Source: Octopus sinensis
Taxonomy: Eukaryota
Length of the DNA: 64,000 nucleotides
Assembly: GCF_006345805.1 (NCBI RefSeq)
Contig: NC_042997.1
Location: 32,116,001 to 32,180,000 of the forward strand
Direction of reading: 5' to 3'
Shown: piece by piece, positions 4,191-46,658 of the stretch
How the letters are laid out: each line of letters begins with the position of its first letter
How positions within the stretch are numbered: position 1 is the stretch's first letter
Translations under genes and position numbers: made by a program
Notes under the pieces: model-generated
What the model was told of the DNA's origin: nothing
The model's input: the letters and a program-made list of their open reading frames with translations, nothing else
The model's database searches: none

Positions 4191-4838
4191 TTTGTGGAAC
4201 ATTCTCCAAAGTGTACTTCACTTCAATCATACTGTTATTTGTTTTAGTTGTTGTTTTGTTTGTTTGCTTGTTTGTTTGTTTTTTGGGGTGTGAGTTTGGA
4301 AGATGCTGTGTCCAGAGCATTTGCAGGTCACCCTTCAAGACTGGTTAGATTGATGATGTTGAAAAAGTGAAAGTCAATTATGTAGAATGGAGAGAATTTC
4401 AAAGGGATGGCATTTGGAGGATTAAGGATTGGATTTTGTGTAGTAATTATGATGTAACCTGGCGAGGACGGACAGAATATGGATGAGGAGAAGAGAGATG
4501 GGTGTATTGGAGTGTGCAGCTCCATGCCAACCAGTCTGATGGACGTTTTGGGGTGTAGTCTAAGATGTCTATCTAAACAGTAGCACCATCCCAGATGTGA
4601 CAGCAGTTTTTCAATGTGATTTTCACTTGAGTTTTACATATTGTACACAACTGCTAGGAGCTGAGGTATATGGTGGTCTTAAAAATGTAGGCTAGTCTTC
4701 AGGATGCAGGTTTTTGCTATGCTATAGATGTAAGGTCACCAGGACATATCAGTACCTGGGAAGTCTAACATTTGTATTTTGTTTTGGGATTTGGTTTGCA
4801 AGATTCTTTATATGAGTTCGTGTGTTGAAGCATTTTCT

Positions 4839-5114
4839 GTTGTGTCTGGGGAGAGTCATTTTCTTTTTGTGCCTTATAATGTAACACACTCACCGGTAAA
4901 ATTTCCACTTATTTCTTATTTTTTTATTTTCCTAAAATTTTCATTGTGTCTTGCAACCTTTTCAATAGCCTTGACTCTCAAAACTATTGAAAAGGTTGCA
5001 AGATGCAACGAAAATTTTAGGAAAATAAAAAAAATAAGAAATAAGTGGAAATTTTACCGGTGAGCATGTTACATTATAAGGCACAAAAAGAAAATGACTC
5101 TCCCCAGACACAAC
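4839..5114. repeat. Near-perfect fold-back inverted repeat (~130-bp arms, 15-nt loop), probably a Penelope-like inverted pseudo-LTR insertion
   Basis: 4839-4968 is the reverse complement of 4984-5114 with few mismatches; loop CCTTGACTCTCAAAA. Confidence 0.9.
4984..5020 (+). ncRNA. Minimal hammerhead-like motif with U3-A8 core covariation
   Basis: CTA-TTGAAAA-G-GTTGCA-aga-TGCAAC-GAA-AATT-T-TAG: stem I CTA/TAG, core UUGAAAA in place of CUGANGA, 6-bp stem II, palindromic AAUU stem III, UUU triplet. Confidence 0.55.
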
Positions 5115-5315
5115 TAACATTTGCAGCTATTTAAAAAGTTTTGGGAGCATGTTGCTCATGACTGGTGGAAAGGTCCAACAGGGTTACTTGTTGTTTTCAT
5201 GCATGTAGTGATTGTGTCTTTGTGTTGTTTGAAGGAGATTAGATTCATAAGACATCATAAGAGGATGTATTCAAGCTTTCTGTTCATGAAGGCAGTGCAA
5301 GTCTGTCGTGAGGTA

Positions 5316-6573
5316 CGAGGGGCGTTCAATAAGTAATGCCTCTGACCCACTTGCAGTTATTTGATCTCTATAGAGTAAGTGGCAAATTACAGCACTGAAT
5401 GAATTGTGGTTTCTGATTTACAGGTGTTTGAACTGAGTCAAGTGTGAAATGGAGCCTGTTGAGTGTCGAGCAGTGATCCGGTTTTTGTATTTAAAAGGAC
5501 GCACACCACGGGAGACTTTTGATGAAATGAAAGTAACTTAGTGTGATGATGCCCCATCATATGACCTTGTAAAACGCTGGCATCGTGAATTCAAACATGG
5601 TCGGAACTCTGTGGAAACAGCTCCCAGATCTGGTCGCCCCCTTCTGCCATTGATGAGGCATCTGTCCGTCAAGTTGAGGCTGCCATTTCGGAAGATCGAC
5701 GCATAACTATTTGCCAAATAGCCCATGAGGTCAAGATTAGTACCGGGTCTGTGGAAACTATCATTCATGACCATTTGCATATGCAAAAGGTATCTGCCAG
5801 ATGGATTCCCAGGTTGCTCACGCCTTTCCAGAAGCAAGAACGCATCGAGTGCTCGAGGGTGAATTTGGAGATGTGCCAAGAAGATGAGTCAAAATTTTTC
5901 AAAAGACTGATTACACAGGATGAAACCTGGATCCATCACGATGATCCAGAGACCAAAACCCAGTCAATGCAGTGGAAGCACCGTGACTCACCCCCTCCAA
6001 AGAAGGCAAGGGTGCAGCCCTCCGCTGGCAAGGTCATGCTCACAGTCTTCTGGGACCAGGACAGAGTAGTGATGACAGATTTCCTGGCAAAGGGTACCAC
6101 AATTGCAGGAGCCTATTATGCTTCACTTTTGAGGAAATTAAGAGAAGTTATCAAAATCAAGAGGCGGGGCAAGATCAGCAAAGGCATCCTCCTCCTGCAG
6201 GACAACGCTCCAGTCCACAACTCGCTTGTCGCCAGATCAGAAGCACAGGTGTATGGCTATGAACTCCTCCCCCATCCTCCTACTTTCCTGACCTCGCACC
6301 CTCTGATTTTCACCTCTTCCCAATCATGAAGTTGTTTTTGAAAGGAAAGCGTTTCCCAGATGATGCAGCCTTGATTTCTGAAGTCGCGTTCAGGTTGGAG
6401 GACCAAGCTGGGGTCTTCTATAAAAACGGTCTCCAGAGCTGCATCAAACAATGGGAGAAATGCGTAACTCTGGGTGGTTCCTATGTAGAAAAAGACTAAT
6501 AACTGTGAACAAGTTTCGTTGCTCTACTGCTATGGGAAGTGGGTCAGGGGCATTACTTATTGAACGCCCCTCG
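5316..6573 (+). mobile_element. Full-length mariner (DD34D-type) DNA transposon, inactivated
   Basis: TIRs CGAGGGGCGTTCAATAAGTAATGCC... / ...GGCATTACTTATTGAACGCCCCTCG, TA duplications at 5314-5315 and 6574-6575, length 1258 bp. Confidence 0.95.
5449..6499 (+). pseudogene. Mariner transposase pseudogene
   Basis: MEPVECRAVIRFLYLKG start, in-frame TAG near 5538, frameshifts. Motifs SARWIPR, TQDETW, LLQDNA and a frameshifted YFPDLAPSDFHLF; ends ...WEKCVTLGGSYVEKD*. Confidence 0.9.
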
Positions 6574-32767: not shown

Positions 32768-35081
32768 ATGTTTGCTCTAACTAGATCGAAATCAATGTCG
32801 AAGAAAACTTCTAAAACGTCGCCTTCTTCATCACCGCTGTCCTCCGCGGCTGTGGTGAAGGAGGCAACTGACAGTTGGAAAAGCCGTAGTAATCGTAACA
32901 ATAACAATCGACACCATCAGTTACAATATTCAGCCAGTCACTTGGGCTGTAGTACAAGTATAAGCAGTGGTGCTAGTGGTCCCAAGGTAACTAAGAAATC
33001 GGCTCACTCAACTATTGGTGGCAATCCTACATCTATGACGTCCTCAAAGACTATGATTGATGGCAGCGGTGTGGCAGTTAATGAAGCTAATCTTGGTTTT
33101 CTTGGACGGCTGAAGAGAAAGTTTAGGATCCATACCAACAAAGGTAGTTACAGTCTTTGCCAGGAAAATTTGTCAAACAATAGCCATTATATGGCACGTA
33201 GTGAGAGCGAAATATATGACAATAATCATCACGCAGGACTTACTTGGAAAGAAACTAAATTACGTTCAGAAAGCTTACCCCGCACACGACAAAACCCGTT
33301 TTCGACTGTGAAAAAGACACCGCATCGGCAGAATTCTTCTTTCTGGGGAAGACATTTCCCAGATAACCAAAATATTGTAGACCCATCATGGCTCACTGAA
33401 GAATCCGACGAGGGGCAGTGTCGCCCATTGTTGAATGAATCAGGTGAAGTAAGGAATGATTTTTTGAGCTTGGATGAGTCTGCAATTGACTTGGATAATG
33501 AACCTGCAACTAACGATGTCTTGAATGATGAACCAGGTTATGAAAGCTTGGAAGAAATCAAATTAAAAATGCAGTTAAATCAATTAAAACATTCTTCTGT
33601 TTCTACTGTTCTTGAATGCCCTGAAACCCCTGATACAAATGACTTATGCTGCAATGGGGTTTCATTACAAGTTAAGTCCTCCTTGTTATCTTCAGCATTA
33701 CCAAAGAATGGCCAGCTCAAAAATGCAGACCATATTAATAAAAACTGTCAGAATGGAACAGATAACATGTGTGAATGTACCAAAAATTTGGAGCTACATC
33801 CTGCGGAATGTAATAATGATAACAAACTTGTGTACTACTGTGATGAAAGGATGTCACCTCCTCCTGCCTCGTTAGCAGCAACGACACTACAGTCTTTAAA
33901 TTGTTGCCGTGGTAGGCAGACAGCAGAGAGTGGTGCATCAAAAATATGTCTGAATTTACCAACTTTGCAATTCTCGTGCCCTTCAAGAAATCCTTCAGTT
34001 GATGATACAAGTCCGGATTCATCTGATCTGTTTTCTGATGAACTCTATGCAAATCCCCAAATCCTTATCCGCAAAAAGTCCCGATCAAAACAATCATTTC
34101 AAGAATCTGATCGAACAAGTAAAGGTTCTACATATGAAGGAATTGCAACAGGTGCAAGTGATTCAAATGGCAATTCAAAAGAGAACAACGAACAAGACAT
34201 GTCTCCAAAAGAAACACAAACTGACTTGGCACCACCATTGCCTGCTCGAAACTATCGCCCTGATGAGAAAGGAGACCCCGAGAAATGTGAATCCTTTAGC
34301 ACTTGGTGTAATGACTATGCTAAAGGAACCTCAATGGTGGAAAATACATCATCCGGGACACCTTTCTTCAACAACCTGTGTTTACCTGAAACTTCTCTCC
34401 CACTGCCTCCCTCAGATGTTCCTCCCCCACTCCCACCAGATAACCGAAAGTCAGTGTTTGCTGGTAGTAGTAGTTCAAGTGATAAAGTGAGTGCTAATGT
34501 GATAAATCCAATGACTAAACTTCGGCTGAATGAACAGCCTTCACTGGCAGCATCTTCTTTAGAGCAGTTGTTGCAAGAATCTTCAGTTGCTCCATCTTTT
34601 AAACGACGAGTTCTTGATGAACCAATTCATGCTTCCTTAGAGGAGGTTTTCCCCAGAATGCGGACACAACATAATCCTTGTCGATCAAAATTAACTGCTT
34701 CCTGGAATGGGGAGCGTTTAAATGCCAACACCAGTAATCATTGGGATTTTTTCATGAAGGACAGTCTCCCTAAGTCTTTGTCTTCATCAAAAGTGTTAGA
34801 TGAACCTATCCATGCATCATTAGATGAAGTATTTCCTCAAAGAAGGCAGAGGCAAAATACTAAATGGAATAGAAATAGTCTTTCATCATTGAACTGCAAT
34901 GGCAGACGTTTCCCTAGTGCTGAGAATAACTGGGAGGTTGTCGTTCAAGAAGGCAGCCCTAATTTATTTGGATGTACCCAGATGTTTCCTAGTGTTAATG
35001 GCCTGATCAATCCGGAGATACCACCACCATTGCCTGCTAAACGGAAAACTAACCAAAGTTGTTTAGGATCCTGCAAATCTG
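32768..35081 (+). CDS. Large coding exon of a host gene: ~771-aa disordered, Ser/Asn/Pro-rich N-terminal region of a probable signalling adaptor; continues in downstream exons
   Basis: 781-codon ORF in AT-rich DNA; acceptor ...TCTACCACAG| at 32760; donor TCTG|GTGAGT after 35081 (phase 1). Motifs PPLPAR, PPPLPP, PPPLPAKR; Tyr motifs YESL, LYANP, TYEG. Internal duplicated motif with synonymous divergence. Confidence 0.85.
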
Positions 35082-45543: not shown

Positions 45544-45764
45544 CCCTTTCGTTATCATATTTATTTTGAGATGCTCTGTGTTTCTTTCAATTATTTTAAA
45601 TATAACAAAGAATTTAGTAAAATAACATAGCTATCATTAAGCTAGTGTTAGGAATATAAATTGCAACTAATGTTTGGTGGTATATTTTGATGCAAAACTT
45701 AGGAAAACTAGACATTTGTACTACAGAGTCAGAGCTGGTTTTGGCCGGGTTAGTAACGAAAGGG
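45544..45764. mobile_element. piggyBac-like MITE (221 bp)
   Basis: TTAA at 45540-45543 and 45765-45768; TIR CCCTTTCGTTA / TAACGAAAGGG. Confidence 0.85.
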
Positions 45765-46658
45765 TTAATCAATTTTCGAATTTTATTGACTTCTCATCAG
45801 GGGTATCTGCATTACTCTAACCAATCTCAGAGAAATTAACAGGCAGTCCATTTATATACTCCACAAATCCAGTAGCTACTGAGAACAGCAGCTACTTATT
45901 TGCCTATCATAAGTGTTTAGCATTTTATTTAATACCAGCAACCTGTCCACAGGGATCTTAATCCACACAGTATCAGGGCATTATATATGTAACCTATATA
46001 GTAGATATACAAACAAGGCAAATTTTGCTATTTCTCTGTAGATTGAAAAAAATTAGGTATAGCCGTTAATCAGTTTTTGAATTTTAGATTGAGGCAATCT
46101 GCTGTGCTAGAGAAGGCCTATCCAGCTAAATAAAATTGAAGCCATAAAGACTTGTCCATTATGTCCATGCCTCTGGACACAGTCTGTCCCTGACAAACCT
46201 GTCCCCCACATCTCTTTTTCCTAACACTTCTTCCTACCCCCACCCATATTCACCATCACTGTGTTCCCCTGCCCCCTGTCTCCTACTCTCTCTTGCTAAT
46301 CTACTTGCACACAACATGCCCCTGTTGAGTCTCTTTCCCCACAACATATCTTCCTCACATCCCCTCCCTCTACCTGTGCCCACCCGCTCTCTTACTACAG
46401 TTTCTCCTTCCCTCCATCTTCCAATCTCACCTTATCCAACCTGTTGTCCACTTCAGTATATACACCTTCCTGTAACTGGGATGTATGCACCACCACATCT
46501 TCACCATCTTATCTCTCTCTCTCTCTCTCTCCAACTTATGTAGCCTCATATCTCTTTTATTTTTATGTATTATTTACATGCACACTTAGTTTAAATACAT
46601 AAAATACTTTCTATACTATATCCCAGATTCAGTTTAAAAAGAAAAGTTTAAGTATTTC

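What the first reader, a model, noticed from the sequence alone, without database searches (positions are those of the whole stretch)
4839..5114. Fold-back hairpin carrying a non-canonical hammerhead with compensatory U3-A8 and stem-III covariation
Seen: 130-bp inverted arms. The right arm reads CTA-UUGAAAA-G-GUUGCA-aga-UGCAAC-GAA-AAUU-U-UAG. Against the minimal consensus (CUGANGA...GAAACGUH) there are two paired changes: C3->U with G8->A, and C15.2-G16.2 -> A-U, which keeps a palindromic stem III. The UUGAAAA core is in both arms, so it predates the inversion. Known: C3 and G8 form a Watson-Crick pair in the active hammerhead, and U3-A8 preserves it. Inference: a variant ribozyme family in cephalopod Penelope-like elements that CUGANGA-based searches would overlook. 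Caveat: stem I is only 3 bp here, at the truncation junction, and the left-arm stem II is decayed.
Basis: partly seen in the sequence, partly recalled or inferred. Interest (0 to 1): 0.75.

Follow-up and report, generated by a model that had tools for sequence, protein, structure and literature searches.

The report
Octopus retrotransposon hammerhead with swapped core
This hairpin is a folded-back fragment of a common octopus jumping gene, and it carries a small, likely self-cutting RNA whose swapped core base pair is already reported in other animals, so it is a new example rather than a new kind.

Summary
Window 4775-5113 is one insertion, flanked by a 10-bp target-site duplication, of an abundant Penelope-like element (RT plus C-terminal GIY-YIG): a truncated copy and its fold-back. 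The 37-nt motif at 4984-5020 belongs to the family: 1,948 exact genome copies. It lies sense-strand downstream of the endonuclease in 28 of 30 copies found by protein alone, and again 76 nt before the start codon. Related families keep the fold through seven compensatory changes, including C3-G8 versus U3-A8, so it is a true hammerhead homologue. It is not a new variant: U3-A8 (same UUGAAAA core) and A15.2-U16.2 are both in Cervera and de la Pena 2014; only the combination and host are new. Stem I is 3 bp in intact elements too. Cleavage is untested and looks dispensable: 5' ends of copies peak 13 nt upstream of the core, with an extra G (15 of 26) suggesting capped, uncut RNA, and none falls at the cut site. 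A young sister family has lost A9.

The parts
4765..4774 (+). target-site duplication, left copy (10 bp)
   Evidence: identical 10-mer at 4765 and 5114
4775..4978 (-). left arm: element leader from the inferred transcription start (4978) through hammerhead, 5' UTR and first 28 codons, including the roughly 60-nt tail
   Evidence: matches family ends
4932..4968 (-). left-arm hammerhead motif, U3-A8 core, stem II decayed at two CpG-type positions
4857..4859 (-). start codon of the element ORF in the left arm
   Evidence: frame continuous with ORF-bearing copies
4975..4979 (.). fold-back turn; C4979 likely the base added opposite the RNA cap
   Evidence: sequence; inference
4978..5113 (+). right arm: fold-back copy ending about 20 nt into the ORF (no tail)
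4984..5020 (+). minimal hammerhead motif: stem I 3 bp, U3-A8 core, bulged G, stem II, palindromic AAUU stem III, predicted cut 5017/5018
5094..5096 (+). start codon of the element ORF in the right arm
   Evidence: N-terminus aligns with sister family B
5114..5123 (+). target-site duplication, right copy

Best explanation
The hairpin is one insertion of the 5' leader of an octopus Penelope-like retrotransposon, copied twice in inverted orientation, and the motif in it is that family's minimal hammerhead with a U3-A8 core, likely a weak, dimer- or protein-assisted ribozyme that stays mostly uncut in the RNA used for insertion. Shown: element identity, position in both pseudo-LTRs, covariation across families, TSD, and the distributions of 5' and 3' ends. 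Inferred: an internal promoter starts a capped RNA 13 nt upstream of the core; the RT primes at the nicked target and starts at one of two internal sites about 25 or 85 nt into the ORF; it copies to the cap, adds a C, folds back on itself and copies the leader again. The cleavage role, probably trimming tandem read-through transcripts, is inferred and untested.
For: Element: YVDD RT motif and C-terminal GIY-YIG (Pfam E 6e-7) upstream of the motif on the same strand. Downstream homology in 28 of 30 endonuclease-anchored loci, with U3 and A8 in 27 of those 28. Whole motif in direct orientation before the ORF in at least 9 of 30 ORF-start loci. Homology: families B and C (60% and 43-47% protein identity) have C3-G8 hammerheads at the same place. 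In 10 hand-picked representatives, stem II plus the 3-8 pair are 98% paired, with 3 pairs changed on both sides; slid controls are 18-64% paired. Stem I covaries among the U3-A8 families A, D and E at positions 2, 3 and 4, and its 3' strand was not in the search patterns. Uncut template: of 99 copies anchored downstream, 27 start at -17 to -10 (mode -13), 6 at +28 to +34, none at +31. An extra G precedes 15 of 26 starts at -13, against a 17% background (p 4e-6), and 1 of 51 intact copies. 3' ends: 44 of 99 at +20 to +29 and 38 of 99 at +80 to +94 from the start codon. All this matches the Anolis element in vitro: two internal RT start sites, protein-assisted hammerhead, unprocessed RNA as main substrate (PMC11167929).
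Against: No cleavage data. Family A has the weakest fold of the series: a 3-bp stem I, an all-A-U 4-bp dimer helix (+2.2 kcal/mol predicted), and a competing hairpin that masks the core with probability 0.5-0.6 in two of three copies folded. Sister lineages amplified with cores expected to be impaired: C at position 9 in 29 of 29 parsed family B copies, C3.A8 in 7 of 21 family D copies, and U3.G8 in 16 of the first 100 listed old-A copies (counted by eye). The bulged base is G, outside the published H consensus, though one published row has G. Covariation cells share ancestry, so the shuffle control overstates significance. 5' end calls are noisy by about 3 nt, and some loci are two arms of one insertion.
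Confidence: 0.6

Rival explanations
1. The motif descends from a hammerhead but no longer cleaves; stems I and II are kept as a structural or protein-binding part of the leader, and U3-A8 is drift fixed in one ancestor.
For: Core-breaking states amplified in sister families; no genomic 5' ends at the cut site; U3-A8 needs only one origin on the tree; hammerhead mutants did not affect insertion in vitro (PMC11167929).
Against: U4, G5, A6, G12-A15.1 and U16.1 are invariant in 10 of 10 representatives. Families A, D and E keep a Watson-Crick 3-8 pair as majority state while stem I turns over, and stem III stays palindromic after shortening.
Confidence: 0.3
2. An efficient ribozyme whose cut at 5017/5018 makes the 5' end of the transposing RNA.
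For: The cut lies 76 nt before the start codon, a sensible place for a 5' end; natural U3-A8 hammerheads are reported, and such cores had been shown active in vitro (PMC3088659).
Against: No copy of 99 starts at +31 and the peak is 44 nt upstream with an extra G. The predicted fold is weak. Minimal hammerheads of these elements cleaved poorly in vitro (PMC4209133).
Confidence: 0.08
3. A chance match in A-rich DNA, or a miRNA-like hairpin gene.
For: The motif is A/U-rich; weak Rfam miRNA hits on the fold-back.
Against: Rfam hits are far below gathering scores and reflect the inverted repeat. The motif sits where canonical hammerheads sit in sister families and covaries with them.
Confidence: 0.02

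Closest known systems
Minimal hammerheads of metazoan Penelope-like elements, U3-A8 variant of Schistosoma mansoni Cercyon (Cervera and de la Pena 2014, PMC4209133)
   Same: Same UUGAAAA core as row S. mansoni(4), 3-bp stem I, bulge between 9 and 10.1, G10.1-C11.1, palindromic 15.2-16.2, present in both pseudo-LTRs.
   Different: Host is an octopus and the element is Neptune/Nematis-type. It pairs U3-A8 with A15.2-U16.2, a combination not among the Fig. S3 rows read. The bulge is G.
Crassostrea gigas PLE minimal hammerhead (same paper, Fig. S3)
   Same: A15.2-U16.2, U17, 3-bp stem I, mollusc host.
   Different: Canonical C3-G8 core.
Anolis Poseidon element PAc (Frangieh et al. 2024, PMC11167929)
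   Same: Two internal RT start sites inside the ORF giving a tail; hammerhead at the pLTR-ORF junction; unprocessed RNA as main template.
   Different: PAc has C3-G8, its cut site lies inside the ORF, and it is Poseidon clade. Here the cut site is 76 nt before the ORF and the tail is about 60 nt.
Natural U3-A8 hammerheads (Perreault et al. 2011, PMC3088659)
   Same: Same core covariation, described as a compensatory change.
   Different: That survey covers hammerheads generally; the passages read do not mention this element or host.

Membership tests
Penelope-like element (EN+) | single ORF with RT and C-terminal GIY-YIG endonuclease | tested here: met
   YVDD motif; Pfam GIY-YIG E 6e-7; RVT_1 only weak (E 0.07) on a 170-aa piece. 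Family A copies are broken; sister family B has 1,044-1,120-aa open frames.
Penelope-like element (EN+) | pseudo-LTR repeated before and after the ORF | tested here: met
   motif downstream in 28 of 30 and upstream in direct orientation in at least 9 of 30
Penelope-like element (EN+) | inverted 5'-truncated copies and an optional tail | tested here: met
   this window itself
Neptune/Nematis clades | CX2-5CxxC linker before a GIY-YIG with CCHH | tested here: met
   CX4CxxC and CCHH residues in alignment A2; definition from PMC8557442
Neptune versus Nematis | RT phylogeny against reference elements | not tested
   no named reference proteins in hand
PLE minimal hammerhead | core nucleotides with a 3-8 Watson-Crick pair | tested here: met
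   U3-A8 in 42 of 46 anchored copies that keep the core (of 100); C3-G8 in families B and C
PLE minimal hammerhead | stem II with G10.1-C11.1 and covariation | tested here: met
   100% paired, 2 of 5 pairs changed on both sides
PLE minimal hammerhead | stem I of 3 or more pairs | tested here: met
   3 bp in A, 4 bp in D and E, with compensatory changes
PLE minimal hammerhead | palindromic 15.2-16.2 for a dimeric stem III | tested here: met
   AAUU is self-complementary, but predicted unstable
PLE minimal hammerhead | bulge between 9 and 10.1 (consensus H) | tested here: inconclusive
   bulge present but G; G also occurs in the Nasonia row of Fig. S3 and in canonical-core relatives here
PLE minimal hammerhead | self-cleavage after H17 | not testable with these tools
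   only contigs were available
miRNA precursor | Rfam gathering score | tested here: not met

The most novel reading that the evidence does not exclude
These octopus elements are a natural mutant series of one hammerhead (C3-G8, U3-A8, U3.G8, C3.A8, C9), and their copies record in vivo that capped, uncut RNA is the insertion template; in family A, U3 also creates an upstream hairpin that holds the ribozyme off in transcripts from the internal promoter. This would make the open question of what PLE hammerheads are for directly testable.
Probability: 0.3. Interest if true: 0.55.

Novelty: new member of a known kind. Interest (0 to 1): 0.32.

Why it matters
The core swap is not new, so the finding as written is modest. 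It adds thousands of hammerhead copies that Rfam and default descriptors miss, in a host group for which I found no report. The useful part is the comparative series and the genomic sign that uncut, capped RNA is what gets inserted. That supports from genome evidence what had been shown in vitro for one lizard element, and bears on whether these ribozymes are needed at all.

Tried and rejected
Rfam scan: no hammerhead hit. No listed sequencing run is on record as RNA, and all runs laid were contigs, so they say nothing on RNA ends, strand or expression. A suspected intron between the motif and the ORF: the apparent acceptor is coding sequence, and the only recurrent skip, 52 nt, is not GT-AG in any register; rejected. 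Idea that family E is C3-G8 decayed at a CpG: rejected, it is U3-A8 in 12 of 17. Idea of a C3-G8 subfamily with family A stems: 4 copies are scattered in the tree, compatible with double mutation. Idea that U3.G8 is the intermediate on the way to U3-A8: not favoured, because D and E branch deeper and are mostly U3-A8. One search used a structure string off by one column; one search is the corrected count. Stem I could not be counted with that tool because stem III lengths misalign, so it was counted by script. Viral-contig scan: nothing. Earlier findings by sequence: nothing.

Full report
Observation. The arms and the motif are as described. The left arm extends to 4775, and a 10-bp duplication at 4765-4774 and 5114-5123 bounds the insertion. 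The arms differ by 7 substitutions and 1 gap in about 137 nt, so the insertion is old and has decayed. The exact 37-mer with a free 5-nt loop occurs 1,948 times in the genome, 0 in the control; a 28-mer just downstream occurs 3,325 times.

What the element is. [quoted passage not shown] That makes it Neptune/Nematis-type by the definition in PMC8557442 (passages). Of 30 loci found with the endonuclease protein alone, 28 have the motif region on the sense strand 270-843 nt downstream; 2 of the 28 carry deletions in it, and 27 read U3 and A8. Of 30 loci found with ORF-start DNA, at least 9 have the whole motif in direct orientation just before the ORF. The start codon is at 5094, 76 nt after the predicted cut. 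The host is taken to be an octopus because the best protein hit is named Octopus vulgaris and has 98%-identical copies in this genome.

Is it a hammerhead? Related families were collected by protein and by pattern. Families B and C carry C3-G8 cores at the same position (1,603 pattern hits). D and E are mostly U3-A8 (13 of 21 parsed of 23; 12 of 17). Stem I pairs from the core outward are A-U, U-A, C-G in A; A-U, C-G, C-G, U-A in E; A-U, C-G, U-A, G-C in D; and within C the first pair is A-U or G-C. Stem II changes at two pairs between A/D/E and B/C. With the 3-8 pair this gives seven changes on both sides. A tree of 83 of 99 leader sequences (16 dropped as too short; positions 3 and 8 masked) separates B+C from D, E and A with support 100, so one origin of U3-A8 suffices; it has no outside root. 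Stem III is 6 nt in B, C and D and 4 nt (AAUU) in A and E, a shortening that keeps the palindrome.

Evidence against strong activity. Family B, the youngest, with open frames over 1,000 aa, has C at position 9 in 29 of 29 parsed copies of 30. A D subfamily has C3.A8 (7 of 21), and 16 of the first 100 of 311 old-A hits have U3.G8 (counted by eye). Folding predicts that in family A RNA starting at -13 an upstream UCAA pairs with the core (probability 0.60, 0.53 and 0.18 in three copies; 0.03 in one old-A copy), and the AAUU dimer helix is unstable.

How the hairpin arose. In 99 of 100 copies anchored downstream of the motif, 5' ends were: 20 upstream of -17, 27 at -17 to -10 (12 at -13), 18 at -9 to -1, 20 at 0 to +27, 6 at +28 to +34 with none at the cut (+31), and 8 beyond (boundaries noisy, a few mis-scored, some pairs are arms of one insertion). 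Among 79 distinct contexts, 28 start at -13; of the 26 not preceded by the element's own C, 15 are preceded by G (background 17%, p 4e-6), against 1 of 51 intact copies. Reading this as reverse transcription of an mRNA cap rests on recalled knowledge of other retroelements; one paper search found no such report for these elements. An internal promoter is reported for Drosophila Penelope (PMC2377424, abstract only). 3' ends cluster at +20 to +29 (44 of 99) and +80 to +94 (38 of 99) from the start codon, like the two internal RT start sites of the Anolis element (PMC11167929, parts 1-2 of 4 read). The left arm here runs from +85 to -13 and the right arm back to +20, which fits first-strand synthesis to the cap followed by self-priming (inferred).

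Comparison with print. PMC4209133 (main text parts 1-2 of 4; supplement file 2, parts 1-2 of 3; file 1 could not be searched) reports U3-A8 in S. mansoni Cercyon elements with about 1,300 hits, lists a UUGAAAA row and a Crassostrea row with A-U at 15.2/16.2, and found low cleavage of dimers. The GAAA column was extracted separately from the PDF, so I read those rows by position. PMC3088659 (passages) reports natural U3-A8. Searches found no paper on cephalopod PLE hammerheads. An octopus repeat paper has no 'ribozyme' in its text (PMC13282606, passages), and a retrozyme preprint has no 'octopus' (passages; its supplements are closed). Lunse et al. 2017, on about 150,000 PLE hammerhead variants (recalled; not held), and Repbase or Dfam could already include this family.

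Verdict. A real hammerhead homologue in a Penelope-like element, a new member of a known kind; activity untested. Interest 0.32.

Noticed in passing
L176-L205 (family B), e.g. L178:2570-2620: Young sister family with long open frames has C at the normally invariant hammerhead position 9 in 29 of 29 parsed copies; its older relatives keep A9.
   Followed up: partly
window 4978 (minus strand); L116-L145, L355-L424: 5' ends of copies peak 13 nt upstream of the core with an extra G, likely marking a capped transcription start.
   Followed up: yes
L272-L294; L295-L324: Subfamilies with C3.A8 (family D) and U3.G8 (old family A) amplified despite a broken or wobble core pair.
   Followed up: partly
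L077:2689-2740; L151:2136-2187: A 52-nt skip appears in single contigs of three guessed-RNA runs and in none of the three other runs laid; it is not GT-AG; unexplained.
   Followed up: partly
window 5060-5070: A GTG(A/C)GTGTG motif 35-40 nt before the start codon recurs in families A to E; possibly a promoter element.
   Followed up: no
window 5430-6499 (+): Decayed mariner-type transposase (name from recalled motifs; 246-aa open stretch at 5589-6329), unrelated to the hairpin.
   Followed up: no
L096:3700-4300 region of the minus strand; L269, L270: ORFs of families A and B carry long asparagine/threonine-rich low-complexity inserts in the N-terminal part.
   Followed up: no
window 34260-34300 (+) and 45760-45800 (-): Two other CUGAUGA-type cores came up in a loose scan; probably other element families.
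   Followed up: no
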